DNA from: a virus
Lineage: Duplodnaviria; Caudoviricetes
Reading direction: 5' to 3' (one strand)
DNA length: 52,452 nt
Virus record (IMG/VR): IMGVR_UViG_3300010358_000003
Location: 1 to 52,452 of that record
Below are positions 7,540 through 12,119 of the stretch, piece after piece. Under the pieces are notes generated by a model, which did no database searches, was not told the DNA's origin, and was given only the letters and a program-made list of their open reading frames with translations. The position numbers and the translations under genes are program-made. The first letter of the stretch is position 1. Each line of letters starts with the position of its first letter.

Positions 7540-8619
7540 ATGAAGAAGCTTACAATCTCCCAGCTCAAGACTGCGGTCAAAGAACTCGTGGTTCGCAAGA
7601 ACATGGTCATCCTTGTGCGGGGAGGATCAGGAGTCGGAAAGTCCGAAGGCATCGACCAGGCGATTACCGAGTTGGACAGCCCGAGCGCCCTTCGGGCGCT
7701 GCTGGGACCATCATGTACTTATACTGGCACGGTCATGGATGAGATCAGACTGAGCCAGTATGACAGCGTGGAGTTTCGTGGTTTTCCCCAAGCTGATAAG
7801 AAGACCGGAACGGCGATCTGGTATCCGCCAGCCACCATGCCGTTCATCGGGAACGACTCGTTCCCGGACGACAAGATCATCGTAATATTCCTGGACGAGG
7901 CACCTGATGCGAAACCCGACGTATTTGCCGTTATGCAGCAACTTGTTCTTAATCGTTGCGTGGGTGAGCATGTACTTAAACCTAATGTCCGCATCCTGCT
8001 CGCAGGCAATCGCGAGAGCGATCAGGCATTGGCTAAAAAGTTTCCTATGCCCTTGAATAACCGTGTCCTGCATTTCGAAGCAGTGAACACGGTCGACGAA
8101 TTCTGTGTCTATGCCCAGAGCAAGGGTGTGCCATCCATCTTCATCGCCTTCTGGCAATTTCGCCAAGAACTCGTGAACACTTTTGATTCAAAGAAGATCG
8201 CGGCGATCGTGGCGACGCCGCGCACGTGGTTCTTCGCAGTCGATCTGTGGCAGGACAAGCGGCTCGATCCTGTCATCAAGGAAGCCGCCATGATCGGCGC
8301 CATCGGCGAGGGGCCGGCAATGGAGTTTCTTGCTTATGTGGATGTGTGGGCGAATCTCCCGGCGATCGACAAGATCATCAAGGACCCCGATAACACACCT
8401 GTACCTGAGGAACTGTCGATCAAGTACGCCACTGCCATGCATGTCAGCGAGAAGATGACACTCGCCAATGTGGATCAGCTTCATATCTACTTGAGGCGGT
8501 TCACGGCGGAGTTCGTGGTGATGGCTTGGCAATTGGCAACCGCTCGCGATGCGACGCTGTTCGACAGCGACGCCTATATGGACTATGTGAAAAGGTATCG
8601 TGAAATCTACAAGCAGTAA
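7540..8619 (+). CDS. MoxR-like AAA+ ATPase
   Basis: Walker A GGSGVGKS, Walker B IFLDE, sensor LAGN, Arg finger PLNNR, TPRTW. Confidence 0.88.
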   Translation: MKKLTISQLKTAVKELVVRKNMVILVRGGSGVGKSEGIDQAITELDSPSALRALLGPSCTYTGTVMDEIRLSQYDSVEFRGFPQADKKTGTAIWYPPATMPFIGNDSFPDDKIIVIFLDEAPDAKPDVFAVMQQLVLNRCVGEHVLKPNVRILLAGNRESDQALAKKFPMPLNNRVLHFEAVNTVDEFCVYAQSKGVPSIFIAFWQFRQELVNTFDSKKIAAIVATPRTWFFAVDLWQDKRLDPVIKEAAMIGAIGEGPAMEFLAYVDVWANLPAIDKIIKDPDNTPVPEELSIKYATAMHVSEKMTLANVDQLHIYLRRFTAEFVVMAWQLATARDATLFDSDAYMDYVKRYREIYKQ

Positions 8620-9044: not shown

Positions 9045-9281
9045 ATGTCACATTCTAAAGGTATCCTGCGCAATCCGCAGAAAGTAACATGTCGCAAGGT
9101 CCGCCTCAATGCTGAGGGTTACGCCTATGGCGGCCGCCACTATTTCGGCAGTGGACCCCCGCTCTACTATGTGGAGTTGGTTACTCCTGGCGGTGTAGTT
9201 AGCGGTCACGTCCGCGCCAAGTCCAGGGCCGAAGCGATCGAGGAAGCAAAGACACGTCCCTGGTATTGGGGGATCAGATGA
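9045..9281 (+). CDS. Hypothetical protein
   Basis: 78 aa, AAGGA SD. Confidence 0.65.
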   Translation: MSHSKGILRNPQKVTCRKVRLNAEGYAYGGRHYFGSGPPLYYVELVTPGGVVSGHVRAKSRAEAIEEAKTRPWYWGIR

Positions 9282-9496
9282 AACGCGCCTATGCTTCGGC
9301 CAGAGCGGCACGCATTGGCAAGGGACAGATCATCATCTCTCTCGACGGCCCGCGCGGTGGCACGCAATATACCGGTGAGCTTTCTCGCGAATCAGCCGCG
9401 AGGTTGATGTTCGAGCTTAACCGCGCGCTCAAGGAGACTGAGGACCCTGCAAACCTGGACCCGAGCCCATGGATAGTGACGTCAAGGAGTGACTGA
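9278..9496 (+). CDS. Hypothetical protein
   Basis: ATGA overlap with the upstream stop; fills the operon gap. Confidence 0.55.
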   Translation: MKRAYASARAARIGKGQIIISLDGPRGGTQYTGELSRESAARLMFELNRALKETEDPANLDPSPWIVTSRSD

Positions 9497-9498
9497 AC

Positions 9499-11589
9499 AT
9501 GCGACGACAACAACAGAACCAACTTTCCGTCTTCGAGACATCACGTGCTGGACTGGTCAAGGTGAAAGCCTTGATGTTCTTCGCGAGCATCCTGCTGCAA
9601 ACCCCGATGATCGAGGACCCGACGTGCGCCACGGCGTGGACCAACATGGTGGTGATCGGGTACAACCCAGCCTTCATAGAGTCTCTCGACGTCCCCACTG
9701 CAAAATTCGTGATCATTCACGAGATCATGCATATTATCCTGAAGCATGGTCTAAGATTATGTGGTCGCGATCCCGAAGAATGGAACAAGTGCTGTATCAG
9801 TGACGATACCCTTGTCTTGATGGCGGACGGCACAAGCAAGCAAGCCGGCAATATCCGTCTTGGCGAATACGTGTGGTCGCCATTTGGTCCAAGCATGGTC
9901 CTCGATGTGATCGACAAAGGTATTCGCGAGGTGCTTCATCTCTCGCACAACGCCGGCGAATGCTGGGCGACCCCTGATCATCGGTTCTTGACAGAAAGCG
10001 GGTTCATCGATGCCGAGCTACAGAATACCAGGCTGCACGGGCACATTCTCGGAGTTGCCAGAAGCGCAAGAATTCATTCGGCAACACTACAAGGATATGT
10101 CGATGCGCGACTTGGCGCTGACGACAGGCGTTGCTTATCACAACATCGCCAGGTTCATGGAGGTCAACAAGCTGCTAGCCGATCGATATACGACCAAGCG
10201 TCGGAATATCTCCTTGGCGCTTGCCTTGACGCCATTGGAGCTGGCCTACCTGGCTGGGATCATCGACGGCGAGGGCACGATCTCTGTAGCGCAGAACAGT
10301 ATCGTGTATTTACGACCGCATATCGTGATCTCGAATACGTCAACTCTCCTGGCCGAATGGCTCCGCATCCGTGGGTTCGCACCTCATTGGGCGAAGAATA
10401 CCATTGGGCGGGATTATTGGCGGATTTCATGGAGCGGCTTTTCTCTCGACAAGCTTCTGCCATTGATCCGACCGTACCTGGTAATCAAGGCTCGGCACGC
10501 GGATTTGCTCTTGGAACTCATATCGCTTCGGCGGCAACAATCGAAAAATTCGCCGCTGACGGAACGTATGCACGAGCTTGTCTTGATGATCGCATGGCTG
10601 AACGATCGGACGTTGTCATCAGGCGAAAAGGAGAAACGCGATGCGTTATCGATCTCGTCACTGAACACCATGTTTTCGCAGCTGGTGGATTACTGACCCA
10701 CAATTGCGACTATGCCATCAACATCATACTCAAGGACCTGGGCTTCAAGGTCTGGCAGTGGGCGTTAATCGATGACCGGTATAGGGGCATGACTGCGGAG
10801 CAAATCTATCTGGCGCGCCAGCTGGAGCGCGAACAAAACAAGGGTAAGGGCAAAGGCAAGCAGCCCCAACCTGGGCAAGGGCCCCAGCCACCCGAGTCAA
10901 CCCAAGGTGGGCTAGGCGGTGACCTGAAGCCCGTGCCGGCAGTGACGGCTGATACCCGCGATCGAATTGAACACGAGATCAGCAAGACCTTGGCGCGTGC
11001 CACTGCCATCGCCCGCGAGCACGGCGTCATGCCCGGGATACTCAAAGCGATCATCACTGCCACGTACGAGGACCCCGTGCCATGGGACCAGGTGCTGGTC
11101 GACTACATGAGCGCATGTCTCAAGACCGAGGAGAATTGGCGCAGGCGTAACCGTCGGTATTCTGACGTGATCCTGCCCTCGTATAAGTCCGACGGCATGG
11201 ATGAGCTGACCATCGTTGCCGATTCATCTGGCAGCATGTTCAACAAGGCGATCTTCGAACGCATTGCGGTTGCCGTGAATTACATCGTTACCACCATCAA
11301 GCCCATGATAGTTCGAGTTGTGTGGGCGGATGACTCCGAGATGTCGAGCATCGACGTGTTCGAGAACGGTACCGAGGTCGTGCTCCATCCGAAAGGAGGT
11401 GGTGGCACCGATATGCGACGTCCGTTAAAATATGTTGCGGAGCAGTACAGTCCGGAGGTGGTTTTGCTGCTCACCGACGGCTACACACCGTGGTTGGAAA
11501 CTCCACCGCCCTATCCATTAATTATTGGATGTACCACCAACGCACCGTGTCCGGACTATGCCAGTATTGTAAGGATTGACGTGCCATGA
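9499..11589 (+). CDS. DUF2201-like metallopeptidase + VWA-domain protein, intein-containing
   Basis: HEIMH (HExxH) at 9718-9732; WNKC/CDYAIN reconstituted after splicing; MIDAS DSSGS, GGGTD and LTDG; follows a MoxR ATPase; AAGGAG SD. Confidence 0.88.
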   Translation: MRRQQQNQLSVFETSRAGLVKVKALMFFASILLQTPMIEDPTCATAWTNMVVIGYNPAFIESLDVPTAKFVIIHEIMHIILKHGLRLCGRDPEEWNKCCISDDTLVLMADGTSKQAGNIRLGEYVWSPFGPSMVLDVIDKGIREVLHLSHNAGECWATPDHRFLTESGFIDAELQNTRLHGHILGVARSARIHSATLQGYVDARLGADDRRCLSQHRQVHGGQQAASRSIYDQASEYLLGACLDAIGAGLPGWDHRRRGHDLCSAEQYRVFTTAYRDLEYVNSPGRMAPHPWVRTSLGEEYHWAGLLADFMERLFSRQASAIDPTVPGNQGSARGFALGTHIASAATIEKFAADGTYARACLDDRMAERSDVVIRRKGETRCVIDLVTEHHVFAAGGLLTHNCDYAINIILKDLGFKVWQWALIDDRYRGMTAEQIYLARQLEREQNKGKGKGKQPQPGQGPQPPESTQGGLGGDLKPVPAVTADTRDRIEHEISKTLARATAIAREHGVMPGILKAIITATYEDPVPWDQVLVDYMSACLKTEENWRRRNRRYSDVILPSYKSDGMDELTIVADSSGSMFNKAIFERIAVAVNYIVTTIKPMIVRVVWADDSEMSSIDVFENGTEVVLHPKGGGGTDMRRPLKYVAEQYSPEVVLLLTDGYTPWLETPPPYPLIIGCTTNAPCPDYASIVRIDVP
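9793..10704 (+). mobile_element. Intein (304 aa) in the metallopeptidase domain
   Basis: Block A CISDDTLVLMADG, block B ATPDHRFLT (TxxH), blocks F/G VIDLVTEHHVFAAGGLLTHN followed by Cys+1. Confidence 0.92.
10010..10696 (+). CDS. LAGLIDADG homing endonuclease (single motif, N-terminal HTH-like segment), overprinted in the +1 frame of the intein
   Basis: LAYLAGIIDGEG at 10241-10276, then ISNTS and LLPLIRPYLVIK typical of LAGLIDADG proteins; own ATG preceded by AGAAAGCGGG; own TGA. Confidence 0.85.
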   Translation: MPSYRIPGCTGTFSELPEAQEFIRQHYKDMSMRDLALTTGVAYHNIARFMEVNKLLADRYTTKRRNISLALALTPLELAYLAGIIDGEGTISVAQNSIVYLRPHIVISNTSTLLAEWLRIRGFAPHWAKNTIGRDYWRISWSGFSLDKLLPLIRPYLVIKARHADLLLELISLRRQQSKNSPLTERMHELVLMIAWLNDRTLSSGEKEKRDALSISSLNTMFSQLVDY

Positions 11590-12119
11590 TGGCTTCACTG
11601 CGTGATCTTACTGAAGCTGAGGGTAATGCTCTTAAGAAAGCTCTAAGCTATGATCCAGATACTGGATTGTTTGTTTGGCTGGTAACAAGCTCGAAGAAAA
11701 AACTTAACGGTACAATAGCTGGAACACACACTCATCGTTATGTTCAGATTAAGTATAATAATCGCTGGTATTCAGCACATCGGCTTGCGTGGCTTTTTGT
11801 TCATGGTTACTGGCCTAAAAACGAGATCGATCATATCAATGGCGATAAGATGGATAATCGGATCACTAATCTACGCGAAGCAACTCGTGCACAGGGTCGT
11901 GCAAATATGCCGCTAATGCGATCTAACACCTCTGGAGTAAAAGGAGTTGTAAAACGAGGTAAAATATGGGAAGCATACATTGGGGTAAACCATCGCTGGG
12001 CTTATCTCGGATCATTCAAATCAAAGGAGGTAGCTATAGAAATACGCAGACAAGCAGAAGAAAAATACCAACGTGAGTTCAAATGGAACCGACTGACTGA
12101 ACATAAGAAAGGAACTTAA
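11586..12119 (+). CDS. HNH homing endonuclease with an AP2-like C-terminal domain
   Basis: YDPDTG, HRLAW, IDHINGDKMDNRITNLR, SGVKGV, YLGSF; visibly more AT-rich than its neighbours. Confidence 0.88.
   Translation: MMASLRDLTEAEGNALKKALSYDPDTGLFVWLVTSSKKKLNGTIAGTHTHRYVQIKYNNRWYSAHRLAWLFVHGYWPKNEIDHINGDKMDNRITNLREATRAQGRANMPLMRSNTSGVKGVVKRGKIWEAYIGVNHRWAYLGSFKSKEVAIEIRRQAEEKYQREFKWNRLTEHKKGT

What the first reader, a model, noticed from the sequence alone, without database searches (positions are those of the whole stretch)
9793..10704. Intein whose homing endonuclease is a separate gene overprinted in the +1 frame
Seen: the intein frame has intact splicing blocks (C1, TxxH, HN/C+1). Its roughly 200-aa interior has no LAGLIDADG motif and reads like off-frame sequence. 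The same DNA in the +1 frame (10010-10696) encodes a 228-aa protein with LAYLAGIIDGEG, an HTH-like N-terminus, its own ATG with a purine-rich upstream element, and its own stop inside intein blocks F/G. Established: intein endonucleases are normally in-frame two-motif domains of the intein protein, while single-motif LAGLIDADG enzymes act as homodimers. Inference: the intein frame stays stop-free across about 230 overlapping codons, where several stops would be expected by chance (rough estimate). That points to selected dual coding: a free-standing endonuclease gene nested in a mini-intein, translated independently while the intein splices out the filler peptide. This could be a distinct intein/endonuclease architecture or an evolutionary intermediate of endonuclease capture. 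I do not know of it being described but cannot check the literature.
Basis: partly seen in the sequence, partly recalled or inferred. Interest (0 to 1): 0.92.

Follow-up and report, generated by a model that had tools for sequence, protein, structure and literature searches.

The report
Intein with out-of-frame homing endonuclease gene
A soil phage gene carries a self-splicing intein whose homing endonuclease is a separate small gene written in the +1 reading frame of the same DNA; this is real and evolutionarily maintained, but this kind of layout has already been described elsewhere.

Summary
Window 9793-10704 is a 304-codon class-1 intein (Cys1, T60-x-x-H63, H303-N304, Cys+1) in a phage DUF2201/VWA gene (9499-11589). 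ORF 10010-10696 in the +1 frame encodes a 228-aa HTH plus single-motif LAGLIDADG protein. AlphaFold gives pLDDT 89, and the best structural matches are I-MsoI, I-CreI and I-CvuI.

The intein frame has 0 stops over the overlap, where 7.5-11.8 are expected. Unitigs from four other metagenome runs reproduce the intein with no difference inside it, and intein-less junctions occur in two runs. So it is not an assembly artefact.

In three diverged homologues the endonuclease frame shows pN below pS and the intein frame shows pN above pS. The last ~42 codons are conserved in both frames.

The same layout, always +1, occurs in 27 distinct inteins in at least five extein families. In these, no codon before AA/AG/GA ends in T (0 of 1237, against 1441 of 5022 in free-standing relatives).

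The novelty claim fails. Out-of-frame intein endonucleases are reported in two preprints (2025, 2026), which cite Gorbalenya 1998. The 2026 one describes an overlapping LAGLIDADG ORF it labels '+2ORF' in cyanobacterial dnaX.

Verdict: a new member of a known kind. Splicing, independent translation and cleavage are untested.

The parts
9499..11589 (+). Host gene (696 codons plus stop): DUF2201_N putative metallopeptidase (HEIMH motif) plus a VWA-like DUF2201 domain, interrupted by the intein
   Evidence: ORF list. Pfam DUF2201_N E 1.2e-34 and DUF2201 E 5e-11. PHROG 1314 E 1.6e-68.
9499..9792 (+). N-extein (98 codons), ending ...EEWNKC
   Evidence: In 78 of 80 viral DUF2201 loci the N-extein match abuts the C-extein match with a gap of 0 nt. 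Site alignment.
9793..10704 (+). Class-1 intein, 304 codons (Cys1 ... His303-Asn304), read in the host frame
   Evidence: Sequence. Junctions in runs X2 and X5 that lack it. Hint HMM hits. AF2 and Foldseek match mini-inteins.
9793..10014 (+). N-terminal splicing domain (blocks A and B; T60-P-D-H63), not overlapped except in its last 5 nt
   Evidence: Hint N-part HMM hit 9793-10014, E 7.7e-21. pLDDT is 92-97 for residues 1-70 and 73-80 for 71-90. pN ~0.3 and pS ~0.8 against L050 and L001.
10015..10584 (+). Stop-free 'filler' of the intein frame, overprinted by the endonuclease gene (limits approximate)
   Evidence: pLDDT below 50 for intein residues 100-184 and 218-244. Host-frame identity 0.27-0.40 against nested-frame 0.56-0.71. 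Host-frame pN exceeds pS.
10585..10704 (+). C-terminal splicing domain (blocks F and G, ...VIDLVTEHHVFAAGGLLTHN). It is dual-coding with the endonuclease C-terminus up to 10696. The start is approximate.
   Evidence: Hint C-part HMM hit 10612-10704, E 3.6e-13. Beta strands 269-303 with pLDDT 88-97. In the last 42 overlapped codons host-frame identity is 0.55-0.66 and nested-frame identity is 0.50-0.59.
10010..10696 (+). Nested gene in the +1 frame: 228-aa HTH plus single-motif LAGLIDADG homing endonuclease (stop included)
   Evidence: ORF. PHROG 5046 E 7.1e-12. Pfam LAGLIDADG_3 E 0.0033, below the cut-off. 12 stand-alone homologues of 178-231 aa at 44-62% identity. AF2 pLDDT 89. Foldseek to I-MsoI, I-CreI and I-CvuI, E ~1e-7.
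10241..10276 (+). LAGLIDADG motif LAYLAGIIDGEG (nested residues 78-89). E88 occupies the position of the catalytic acid. In the host frame the same DNA reads ...DHRRRG...
   Evidence: Alignment A1: A79, Y80, G83, D86, G87, G89 are invariant and E88 is conserved in at least 90%. The predicted dimer interface is residues 75-88. A conserved R-R/W-R-G appears in the host-frame alignment A2.
9993..10002 (+). Purine-rich SD-like element 8-17 nt upstream of the nested ATG
   Evidence: Anti-SD duplex -5.4 kcal/mol. Homologues: L050 -6.3, L001 -7.1, L052 -9.3. The whole set of 24 first-ATG starts does not differ from random positions (p = 0.19).
10705..11589 (+). C-extein, starting CDYAINIILK (Cys+1)

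Best explanation
The 912-bp insert is a mobile class-1 intein in a conserved motif (WNxA/C|CD[YF]AIN) of a phage DUF2201/VWA gene.

Its homing endonuclease is not a domain of the intein polypeptide. It is a separate 228-codon gene overprinted in the +1 frame, lying between splicing block B and the end of block G.

Proposed working, all inferred:
1. Ribosomes reading the host frame make N-extein, Hint-N, about 190 residues of unstructured filler, Hint-C and C-extein.
2. The two Hint halves associate and splice the filler out with the intein, restoring the host protein.
3. A minority of ribosomes start at ATG 10010 on the same mRNA, behind a weak SD-like element. They make an HTH plus single-LAGLIDADG protein.
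4. That protein dimerises like I-CreI and cuts intein-less alleles at the WNK(C/A)|CDY site. Repair then copies the intein together with its nested gene.

Shown here by sequence statistics: selection acts on the endonuclease protein in the interior, on 'no stop codons' in the host frame, and on both proteins in the last ~40 codons. Host-frame stops would all be T|AA, T|AG or T|GA across endonuclease codon boundaries. They are avoided by not ending the preceding codon in T. That change is always synonymous (NNT to NNC) and so costs the endonuclease nothing.
For: Real sequence:
- Unitigs of runs X2 (982 nt), X5 (1009 nt) and X4 (1255 nt) span 9793-10704 with no mismatch or gap inside it. X3 covers 10145-10717 likewise.
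- Two further metagenome contigs, L048 and L049, carry the identical 912 nt.

Discrete element:
- X5 has a junction 9786->10708 with 9 replacing letters, depth 27 against 64 for the intein form, shorter side 35 nt.
- X2 has a junction 9792->10705 that skips exactly 912 nt, depth 5 against 14, but its shorter side is only 28 nt.
- 78 of 80 viral DUF2201 loci have contiguous exteins. One (L273) gave no N-extein match. Only L228, on the same contig as L001, has the intein.

Host frame kept open:
- 0 stops against 7.5-11.8 expected.
- In 27 of 28 distinct loci with this layout there are 0 stops against 5.9-16.4 expected, matched by at most 0.06% of 5000 shuffles each.
- 0 of 1237 codons before AA/AG/GA-starting codons end in T in the 27 nested genes, against 1441 of 5022 in 144 free-standing relatives.

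Which frame is selected (window, L050, L001, pairwise):
- Overlap, nested frame: pN 0.21-0.31, pS 0.60-0.64.
- Overlap, host frame: pN 0.34-0.41, pS 0.21-0.31.
- N-splicing domain: pN 0.28-0.33, pS 0.77-0.80.
- Constraint passes to the host frame in the last 42 codons.

Proteins:
- Nested model pLDDT 89, pTM 0.75. 113 PDB matches at E <= 1e-3, led by the homodimeric enzymes I-MsoI, I-CreI and I-CvuI.
- Homodimer model ipSAE 0.74 against 0.00 for the best of 3 controls. The mark was reached by 20 of 30 solved homo-pairs and by 1 of 23 single chains. Runs agree in at least 97% of contacts and partner pLDDT is at least 79. The interface is the LAGLIDADG helix, residues 75-88. This may reflect likeness to solved I-CreI dimers.
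- Intein model: pLDDT 92-97 for residues 1-70 and 88-97 for ~261-304, below 50 for 100-184 and 218-244. 23 PDB matches at E <= 1e-3, all of those listed being inteins or Hint domains (gp41-1, Mtu RecA, Ssp DnaB).

Conserved start: 13 of 17 family members begin with MP, and the nested frame has a stop 6 codons upstream.

Mobility hint: strains L048 and L049 differ from the window by 2.5-4.5% in the flanks, but L049 shows no difference in 9693-10853, that is the intein plus 100-150 nt on each side.
Against: - There is no expression or activity data. No listed run is RNA, so translation from ATG 10010, splicing and cleavage are inferred.
- The SD-like element is only moderate (-5.4 kcal/mol). Across 24 nested genes the first-ATG upstream regions are not significantly better than random positions (Mann-Whitney p = 0.19).
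- No promoter-like site and no unusual RNA structure lie near the nested start.
- The window's own sequences stay below Pfam's curated cut-offs: Intein_splicing 15.6 against 35.8 bits, LAGLIDADG_3 18.1 against 22.5 bits.
- The X2 intein-less junction has only 28 nt on its shorter side. Reads were laid at 90% likeness, so the intein-less forms may belong to related strains rather than the same phage.
- pS values near 0.6-0.8 are close to saturation, so the dN/dS ratios are rough.
- The identical block in L048 is wider (9090-10946) than the intein, so the co-conversion reading is only suggestive.
Confidence: 0.85

Rival explanations
1. The nested ORF is a decaying relic. On this reading a formerly in-frame intein endonuclease was shifted out of frame by two compensating indels that became fixed. 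The ORF is no longer translated, and only the mini-intein function persists.
For: Only a moderate SD-like element precedes the ORF, and there is no expression data. Pfam LAGLIDADG_3 is below its cut-off.
Against: - The nested frame shows pN below pS, and its third codon positions are the most variable (identity 0.49-0.54 against 0.71-0.83 at second positions).
- The start, the stop and the acidic residue of the motif are conserved in 17 family members.
- The fold is predicted with high confidence.
- The protein is a single-motif, I-CreI-like enzyme with an N-terminal HTH, not the two-motif domain of canonical inteins.
- Its nearest relatives outside inteins are free-standing genes such as L054 and L056.
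- No fused longer form was found, which is weak evidence.
- A relic would not stay open in 27 loci whose proteins are down to 30% identical.
Confidence: 0.06
2. The endonuclease is made not from its own start codon but by a programmed shift of ribosomes from the host frame into the +1 frame. That would give an N-extein/Hint-N/endonuclease fusion.
For: The two frames are on the same strand and mRNA, and the SD is weak in many loci.
Against: - The nested frame has a TGA only 6 codons upstream of the ATG, leaving an 18-nt window for any shift.
- The ATG and the MP N-terminus are conserved.
- No structured RNA lies around the site (z = 0.32).
- Gene callers in several sources independently called 178-231-aa stand-alone proteins.
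Confidence: 0.04
3. The insert no longer splices. It is tolerated as a surface loop of the host protein, as proposed for the ShiLan out-of-frame HNH insertion in phage methylases. Alternatively, the host gene is dispensable.
For: Splicing is untested. The window's Pfam intein scores are below the cut-off. PMC11855218 (abstract read) describes an in-frame-open insertion that carries a hidden out-of-frame HNH and has no splicing domain.
Against: - Cys1 and the C-terminal His-Asn are invariant in the 26-sequence intein alignment A2. The block B Thr/Ser-x-x-His is visible in most but not all rows by eye.
- The +1 residue is Cys or Ser in 26 of 27 loci.
- The N-splicing domain is under purifying selection.
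- The Hint fold is predicted with high confidence.
- The insertion sits in one of the most conserved extein motifs, next to the HExxH region.
Confidence: 0.04
4. Assembly or sequencing artefact: two compensating indel errors in an ordinary in-frame intein endonuclease.
For: None found.
Against: - The sequence is identical in unitigs of four other runs and in two other metagenome contigs.
- A non-coding frame would carry 7-12 stops.
- The same layout occurs in diverged homologues.
Confidence: 0.01

Closest known systems
Cyanobacterial dnaX intein with an out-of-frame LAGLIDADG endonuclease (Phillips, DeSimone, Gogarten; bioRxiv 10.64898/2026.09.14.751524; abstract and sections 11 and 17 read)
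   Same: The intein splicing domains flank a low-confidence linker. An overlapping ORF, which the authors label '+2ORF', encodes a LAGLIDADG enzyme. An SD motif lies upstream. The endonuclease frame has low omega and the host frame high omega. Distribution is sporadic, and intein-containing and intein-free alleles coexist in metagenomes.
   Different: The host is a bacterial chromosome gene (dnaX), not a phage DUF2201/VWA gene. The passages I read speak of 'LAGLIDADG motifs' at two codon positions, whereas the window's enzyme has a single motif plus an N-terminal HTH. Whether the two endonucleases are homologous, and whether '+2ORF' is the same relative frame and strand, was not tested here because no cyanobacterial sequence was held. 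The other preprint cites the Synechocystis dnaX case as antisense.
Non-canonical actinophage inteins (Gosselin, Arsenault, Gogarten; bioRxiv 10.1101/2025.01.02.630785; abstract and sections 8 and 15 read). They cite Gorbalenya 1998 and Gogarten 2002, which I have not seen.
   Same: The endonuclease is encoded within the intein but outside the intein's reading frame. The authors propose that a free-standing endonuclease gene invaded an intein, and they give evidence of continued transfer.
   Different: Their classes are antisense LAGLIDADG, antisense VSR-like and sense 'frame 3' endonuclease VII-like. Section 8 lists no sense-strand out-of-frame LAGLIDADG class. The window's endonuclease is distantly similar (30% identity, E 3e-4) to the antisense one in the Gordonia phage SchottB minor capsid gene.
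Fractured genes: split inteins with a free-standing endonuclease gene between the halves (Dassa et al. 2009, as cited in the 2025 preprint; recalled, not read)
   Same: [quoted passage not shown]
   Different: There the host gene is broken into two ORFs and the intein acts in trans. Here the host frame is continuous (0 stops), so the intein can act in cis. No split arrangement turned up in any of the held loci outside the 33-locus open-frame list, except the truncated nested case L080.
ShiLan-type hidden out-of-frame HNH insertions in phage DNA methylases (PMC11855218; abstract read)
   Same: An endonuclease ORF is overprinted on an insertion that stays open in the host frame.
   Different: No splicing domain was detectable there. 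Here there is a complete Hint domain, and the enzyme is LAGLIDADG rather than HNH.
Canonical endonuclease-containing inteins (e.g. PI-SceI) and mini-inteins (gp41-1, Mtu RecA, Ssp DnaB)
   Same: The Hint fold and the same insertion point between blocks B and F. PI-SceI, gp41-1, Mtu RecA and Ssp DnaB chains all match the intein model.
   Different: Canonical inteins carry a two-motif LAGLIDADG domain in frame. Mini-inteins have no ~190-residue filler.
I-CreI / I-MsoI / I-CvuI homodimeric LAGLIDADG endonucleases
   Same: Single-motif alpha-beta-beta-alpha-beta-beta-alpha core (Foldseek E 2.5e-7 to 1e-6, TM to target ~0.62-0.66). A symmetric dimer through the LAGLIDADG helix is predicted.
   Different: Those enzymes are encoded in group I introns. 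The window's protein has an extra ~70-residue N-terminal HTH-like domain and is only 20-24% identical.

Membership tests
Intein (class 1, Hint fold) | Nucleophilic Cys/Ser as the first residue and Cys/Ser/Thr as the first C-extein residue | tested here: met
   Cys1 (TGT 9793) and Cys+1 (TGC 10705). Cys1 is invariant in the 26-sequence alignment A2. The +1 residue is Cys in 20, Ser in 6 and Val in 1 of the 27 loci.
Intein (class 1, Hint fold) | Block B Thr-x-x-His and a C-terminal His-Asn | tested here: met
   T60-P-D-H63 and H303-N304. H303 and N304 are invariant in A2.
Intein (class 1, Hint fold) | Hint fold of the N- and C-terminal parts | tested here: met
   AF2 pLDDT 92-97 for residues 1-70 and 88-97 for ~261-304. 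Foldseek gives 23 PDB matches at E <= 1e-3, led by gp41-1, Mtu RecA and Ssp DnaB inteins.
Intein (class 1, Hint fold) | In-frame insertion at a conserved extein site, precisely absent from homologues | tested here: met
   78 of 80 viral DUF2201 loci have a gap of 0 nt between the extein matches. One is undetermined and one has the intein. Junctions lacking the element occur in runs X5 and X2, where X2 has a short 28-nt side.
Intein (class 1, Hint fold) | Score above the curated Pfam cut-off for an intein model | tested here: not met
   Window intein: Intein_splicing 15.6 bits against 35.8, Hom_end_hint 17.7 against 32.1. Nine of the 26 related nested-type host proteins do pass (42.5-59.5 bits).
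Intein (class 1, Hint fold) | Protein splicing activity | not testable with these tools
   Needs expression of the precursor.
LAGLIDADG homing endonuclease, single-motif homodimeric type (I-CreI-like) | LAGLIDADG helix ending in a conserved acidic residue | tested here: met
   LAGIIDGEG at nested residues 81-89. G87 and G89 are invariant. E88 is conserved in at least 90% of 17 sequences, with Asp in P0008.
LAGLIDADG homing endonuclease, single-motif homodimeric type (I-CreI-like) | Alpha-beta-beta-alpha-beta-beta-alpha core fold, one copy per chain | tested here: met
   AF2 elements H75-88, E89-95, E101-109, H112-120, E126-129, E135-142, H146-156. The top Foldseek matches are I-MsoI, I-CreI and I-CvuI.
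LAGLIDADG homing endonuclease, single-motif homodimeric type (I-CreI-like) | Homodimer through the LAGLIDADG helices | tested here: inconclusive
   The model supports binding: ipSAE 0.74 against 0.00 for the best control. The mark was reached by 20 of 30 solved homo-pairs and 1 of 23 single chains. The interface is residues 75-88. The pass may be from likeness to solved I-CreI dimers.
LAGLIDADG homing endonuclease, single-motif homodimeric type (I-CreI-like) | Score above the curated Pfam cut-off | tested here: not met
   LAGLIDADG_3 scores 18.1 bits against 22.5. PHROG 5046 gives E 7.1e-12; that family is labelled 'HNH endonuclease' by its source.
LAGLIDADG homing endonuclease, single-motif homodimeric type (I-CreI-like) | Site-specific cleavage of the element-free allele | not testable with these tools
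   Needs purified protein and a target such as the L210 or X2/X5 junction sequence.
[quoted passage not shown] | The endonuclease ORF lies between the splicing blocks in another frame while the intein frame stays open | tested here: met
   The nested start is 217 nt after the intein start (1 mod 3), and the stop is 8 nt before the intein end.
[quoted passage not shown] | Purifying selection on the endonuclease frame and relaxed protein constraint on the overlapped intein frame | tested here: met
Fractured gene / split intein with intervening endonuclease gene | The host ORF is broken into two genes, each carrying half an intein | tested here: not met
   The host frame is continuous over 696 codons.

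The most novel reading that the evidence does not exclude
The window is one member of a widespread lineage of HTH plus single-motif LAGLIDADG genes that live overprinted in the +1 frame of class-1 inteins, and this lineage has not been surveyed in the papers I found.

What my survey shows:
- 27 distinct cases (28 with a truncated one), with endonuclease proteins down to ~30% identity.
- Exteins of at least five Pfam families: DUF2201/VWA, group-1 glycosyltransferase, DegT aminotransferase, DUF5131 and PAPS reductase.
- The cases cluster on the endonuclease tree: 8 label changes against 26 expected, with 0 of 500 shuffles as low.

Proposed explanation for the constant frame: the layout is made cost-free by the genetic code. 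Every host-frame stop can be removed by a synonymous NNT-to-NNC change in the endonuclease. This would let the intein and its endonuclease gene move between exteins as one unit, and it would explain why the frame is always +1. If so, out-of-frame endonucleases would be a regular, stable intein design rather than the rarity the two preprints describe. Many 'large inteins without a recognisable endonuclease' could then be of this kind.
Probability: 0.6. Interest if true: 0.65.

Novelty: new member of a known kind. Interest (0 to 1): 0.5.

Why it matters
It is a clean case of long same-strand dual coding: 228 codons overlap, and about 40 of them are constrained in both frames. The selective logic can be read directly from the sequence. 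One frame needs a protein and the other needs only the absence of stops. The third-position T-avoidance signature (0 of 1237 against 29%) could serve as a simple detector for such hidden genes.

It supports the 'splicing domain first, endonuclease invades later' view of intein evolution.

The survey suggests that the architecture, called rare in the 2025 and 2026 preprints, recurs in phage and microbial metagenomes across several host genes.

For annotation: gene callers report the endonuclease as an unexplained overlapping ORF, or drop it. The intein interior then looks like a domain of unknown function.

The compact single-motif endonucleases with defined natural target sites may interest enzyme engineers.

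Tried and rejected
- DNA similarity of the host gene to 50,697 phage records found nothing.
- A single-sequence scan of viral contigs with the C-extein found nothing. A 5-sequence alignment was needed.
- Search for fused (longer) forms of the endonuclease: 2655 candidates, none at E <= 0.001, which is weak evidence.
- In the exhaustive profile search, the 150 best of 23,693 hits are mostly 125-397 aa, with four at 413-509 aa. The best-scoring full-length matches are ~200-240 aa. I did not examine the four longest (413-509 aa).
- A search with the intein region of the host protein returned only a 100% identical 702-aa protein, because of candidate crowding.
- Expression: no RNA holder was listed.
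- No sigma-70-like promoter lies near the nested start: 1 site in 2.4 kb against 1.8 expected, and it is at 11402.
- No unusual RNA structure at 9960-10060, z = 0.32.
- SD strength over 24 nested genes does not differ from random positions, p = 0.19.
- Split-intein or 'fractured gene' arrangements around free-standing relatives: with Hint HMMs built from A2, no held locus outside the 33-locus open-frame list had a hit at E <= 1e-3 except the truncated L080. Relaxed searches in 10 loci gave only noise.
- L144 passed the open-frame filter but was dropped. It has 70% GC, 0.9 stops expected, 38% of shuffles stop-free, no Hint hit and no Pfam hit.
- L060's intein start could not be placed, and it was left out of alignment A2.
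- Gorbalenya 1998 is not in the searchable library. I know it only through the two preprints.
- Supplementary files of the preprints were not opened. Their cluster tables may list further architectures that bear on the claim that a sense-strand out-of-frame LAGLIDADG class is missing from the 2025 survey.

Full report
**What is there**

The window is an 82%-complete, 52-kb virus record from soil metagenomes. It encodes a family-A DNA polymerase, an SNF2 helicase and a DUF927 protein.

ORF 9499-11589 (696 aa) follows a MoxR-like ATPase gene (PHROG 1297). It matches Pfam DUF2201_N at residues 17-99 and the VWA-like DUF2201 domain at 570-694. PHROG 1314 resumes at residue 402, so residues 99-402 are an insertion.

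The insertion, 9793-10704, is 912 nt. It begins with Cys, contains T60-P-D-H63, ends with H303-N304 and is followed by Cys.

The +1 frame holds ORF 10010-10696, 228 aa, with the motif LAYLAGIIDGEG. Its ATG lies six codons after an in-frame TGA, and its stop is 8 nt before the intein end.

**Is it more than chance, or an artefact?**

- The intein frame has no stop over the 228 overlapped codons.
- Shuffling the codon order of the nested ORF gives 7.5 stops on average, with 0 stops in 0.005% of 20000 shuffles.
- Resampling synonymous codons with the window's usage gives 11.8 stops, and 0 of 20000 resamples are stop-free.
- None of 6364 windows of 228 codons in the window's other long ORFs is open in that relative frame.

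If two indel errors had shifted an ordinary in-frame endonuclease, the middle of the host frame would be non-coding and full of stops.

Unitigs from four other runs cover the element with no mismatch or gap inside 9793-10704. These are X2 (982 nt), X5 (1009 nt), X4 (1255 nt) and two pieces of X3. Two other metagenome contigs, L048 and L049, carry the identical 912 nt.

The same runs hold junctions that lack the element.
- X5 joins 9786 to 10708 with 9 other letters between. Depth is 27 against 64, and the shorter side is 35 nt. This is an intein-less allele that reads WNRCCDY instead of WNKC|CDY.
- X2 joins 9792 to 10705, skipping exactly 912 nt. Depth is 5 against 14. Its shorter side is only 28 nt, below the tool's 31-nt bridging rule.

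Reads were laid at 90% likeness, so these may be related strains.

**The two proteins**

The nested protein:
- With the 17-sequence alignment A1, the nested protein folds at mean pLDDT 89 and pTM 0.75. The model shows an N-terminal helical, HTH-like part (helices 18-26, 32-39, 43-52, 62-71) and one alpha-beta-beta-alpha-beta-beta-alpha core.
- Foldseek finds 113 PDB chains at E <= 1e-3. The best are the homodimeric single-motif enzymes I-MsoI (E 2.5e-7), I-CreI and I-CvuI.
- A two-copy model scores ipSAE 0.74 against 0.00 for the best of three controls. The mark was reached by 20 of 30 solved homo-pairs and by 1 of 23 single chains. The runs agree in at least 97% of contacts, and partner pLDDT is at least 79. 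The interface is the LAGLIDADG helix, residues 75-88. Because I-CreI dimers are solved, this shows likeness more than it shows binding.
- Pfam LAGLIDADG_3 is below its cut-off (18.1 against 22.5 bits). PHROG 5046 gives E 7.1e-12.

The intein:
- Read in the host frame and folded with 26 related inteins (A2), the intein has pLDDT 92-97 for residues 1-70 and 88-97 for ~261-304, all beta. It has pLDDT below 50 for residues 100-184 and 218-244.
- It matches 23 PDB chains at E <= 1e-3. The listed ones are inteins or Hint domains: gp41-1, Mtu RecA, Ssp DnaB and PI-SceI.
- The window's own Pfam intein scores are below the cut-off.

**Comparative evidence**

The nested protein has 12 stand-alone called homologues of 178-231 aa at 44-62% identity. 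An exhaustive profile search finds 23,693 representatives at E <= 1e-3 and 65 at E <= 1e-30. The best are ~200-240 aa and match over their full length.

Scans of viral, metagenome and genome contigs gave 207 loci.
- In 33 of them (28 distinct sequences), the frame that is -1 relative to the endonuclease is open across the whole match and is at least 300 codons long. The other frame never is.
- One, L144, was dropped as chance. It has 70% GC, 0.9 stops expected, and no Hint or Pfam hit.
- In the other 27 the host frame has 0 stops where 5.9-16.4 are expected. At most 0.06% of 5000 shuffles match this in each locus, and the loci include some with only 28-40% GC.
- All 27 have the Cys1 column and a C-terminal His-Asn. 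The +1 residue is Cys in 20, Ser in 6 and Val in 1.
- The nested ORF starts 196-361 nt after the intein start in 24 loci, always 1 mod 3. In L050, L060 and L072 the start or the intein boundary was misplaced by the script. The nested ORF ends 8-98 nt before the intein end.
- Pfam Intein_splicing matches 21 of the 26 non-window host proteins at E <= 1e-3, and 9 above the curated cut-off.

Exteins of the 27 loci:

| Extein family | Loci | Note |
|---|---|---|
| DUF2201 | 6 | window/L048, L050, L001, L052, L060, L072 |
| Group-1 glycosyltransferase | 8 | 2 below the cut-off |
| DegT aminotransferase | 2 | |
| DUF5131 | 1 | |
| PAPS reductase | 1 | |
| Weak ATPase-type hits | 3 | |
| No hit | 6 | |

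Hint HMMs built from A2 hit 32 of the 33 open-frame loci (all but L144). Among the other loci they hit only L080, a truncated nested case. The rest are free-standing genes with no intein half beside them.

On a tree of 169 endonuclease sequences the 28 nested ones need 8 label changes, against a mean of 26 in shuffles, and 0 of 500 shuffles are as low. Starred branches force at least 2 changes. Free-standing genes such as L054 and L056 sit inside the nested groups. This was a quick search supported by SH-aLRT only.

**Which frame is selected**

Pairwise values among the window, L050 and L001 (nested proteins 55-69% identical):

| Region and frame | pN | pS |
|---|---|---|
| Overlap, nested frame | 0.21-0.31 | 0.60-0.64 |
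| Overlap, host frame | 0.34-0.41 | 0.21-0.31 |
| N-splicing domain, host frame (not overlapped) | 0.28-0.33 | 0.77-0.80 |

Nucleotide identity is lowest at nested third positions (0.49-0.54) and highest at second positions (0.71-0.83).

Protein identity in the interior is 0.56-0.71 in the nested frame against 0.27-0.40 in the host frame. In the last 42 overlapped codons, which cover the intein's C-terminal splicing domain, it is 0.50-0.59 against 0.55-0.66. Both proteins are therefore constrained there.

Host-frame stops could only be T|AA, T|AG or T|GA across endonuclease codon boundaries. In the 27 nested genes, 0 of 1237 codons that precede an AA/AG/GA-starting codon end in T, compared with 26.6% elsewhere. 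C rises to 27.0% from 16.1%. In 144 free-standing relatives, 1441 of 5022 such codons (28.7%) end in T. In the standard code every NNT codon has a synonymous NNC. It follows, as an inference, that the host frame can be kept open at no cost to the endonuclease protein.

**Mobility**

- Of 80 viral loci with a DUF2201 homologue, 78 have N- and C-extein matches that abut (gap 0). One gave no N-extein match, but it has only 109 open codons upstream and no Hint hit. Only L228, on the same contig as L001, carries the intein. The closest relatives, L210-L215 (66-70% C-extein identity), lack it.
- The site is the conserved motif WNxA/C|CD[YF]AIN. L210 is an empty site that matches the window's flanks at all 12 nt upstream and 27 of 30 nt downstream.
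- L049 differs from the window at 2.5-4.5% in the flanks but shows no difference in 9693-10853. In L048 the identical block is wider, 9090-10946. This fits recent homing with co-conversion but does not prove it.

**Translation of the nested gene**

This is the weakest link.
- The upstream AGAAAGCGGG pairs with the anti-SD at -5.4 kcal/mol, in the top ~10% of random positions.
- The values for relatives are L050 -6.3, L001 -7.1, L052 -9.3, L059 -10.2 and L067 -10.0. Over 24 first-ATG starts the set is not significantly better than random, p = 0.19.
- There is no promoter-like site or special RNA structure nearby, and no RNA run was listed.
- The conserved MP start (13 of 17 sequences) and the upstream stop favour internal initiation on the host mRNA.
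- Low expression through occlusion by host-frame ribosomes is my inference.

**Comparison with the literature**

Full-text searches found that the architecture is already described.
- Gosselin, Arsenault and Gogarten (bioRxiv 10.1101/2025.01.02.630785; abstract, sections 8 and 15 read) report 63 non-canonical cases among 784 actinophage inteins. Their classes are in-frame HNH, antisense LAGLIDADG, antisense VSR-like and sense 'frame 3' endonuclease VII-like. They cite Gorbalenya 1998 and Gogarten 2002 for antisense LAGLIDADG cases.
- I confirmed that the window's endonuclease weakly matches the antisense strand of the Gordonia phage SchottB minor capsid gene.
- Phillips, DeSimone and Gogarten (bioRxiv 10.64898/2026.09.14.751524; abstract, sections 11 and 17 and passages read) describe a LAGLIDADG endonuclease in an overlapping ORF, labelled '+2ORF', over the disordered linker of the cyanobacterial dnaX intein. 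They report an upstream SD, frame-dependent dN/dS and coexisting intein-plus and intein-minus alleles.
- PMC11855218 (abstract read) describes hidden out-of-frame HNH genes in insertions without splicing domains.

I did not open the supplements of these papers, and I did not see Gorbalenya 1998 itself.

**Verdict**

The claim of an undescribed architecture is not. The window is a new member of a known kind: a new extein, a phage host, and a single-motif HTH-LAGLIDADG enzyme.

What goes beyond the papers I could read:
- the breadth of one endonuclease lineage, with 27-28 inteins in several extein families, always in the +1 frame;
- the T-avoidance signature;
- the ~40-codon stretch constrained in both frames.

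Noticed in passing
window 11586-12119 (+): A free-standing HNH_3 endonuclease ORF (177 aa, Pfam PF13392 E 2e-17). Its ATG overlaps the stop of the intein-bearing host gene (ATGA at 11586-11589). So a second homing-endonuclease-type gene sits directly beside the intein. L001 has an HNH-like ORF just upstream of its host gene (1843-2466).
   Followed up: partly
window 10853-10862: Related strains (run X4, locus L049) carry an 18-nt in-frame insertion in the Gly/Lys/Gln-rich linker of the host protein (KGKGKGKQPQPGQGPQ region).
   Followed up: partly
window 9693-10853 against L049; window 9090-10946 against L048: Related strains are 95-97.5% identical to the window in the flanks. They show no difference in a block that contains the intein plus 100-150 nt or more of extein on each side. 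This pattern resembles a co-conversion tract.
   Followed up: partly
L054 976-1518; L056: Close relatives of the L055 nested endonuclease are free-standing genes between ordinary genes, with no intein half nearby. So nested and free-standing forms are near neighbours on the tree.
   Followed up: partly
L208 (Gordonia phage SchottB, gene 14, minor capsid protein): The LAGLIDADG match (30% identity to the window's endonuclease) lies on the strand opposite to the capsid gene. This is the antisense class described in the 2025 preprint.
   Followed up: partly
L106 2526-3575: This nested-type intein ends ...LVHN but is followed by Val rather than Cys, Ser or Thr, and it has no Pfam intein hit. It may be a non-splicing or degenerate copy.
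   Followed up: no
window 7540-8619 (+) and 9499-11589 (+): A MoxR-like AAA ATPase (PHROG 1297) lies two small ORFs upstream of the DUF2201 VWA/metallopeptidase gene. This looks like the usual ATPase plus VWA pairing, here in a phage. L090 carries a nested-type intein in an AAA_3-like ATPase (weak hit).
   Followed up: no
alignment A2, host-frame filler (window intein residues ~157-162, DHRRRG): A conserved R-R/W-R-G motif appears in the otherwise unconserved filler of all the nested-type inteins. It is the off-frame reading of the IIDGEG codons of the endonuclease. It could serve as a protein-level flag for hidden +1 LAGLIDADG genes.
   Followed up: partly
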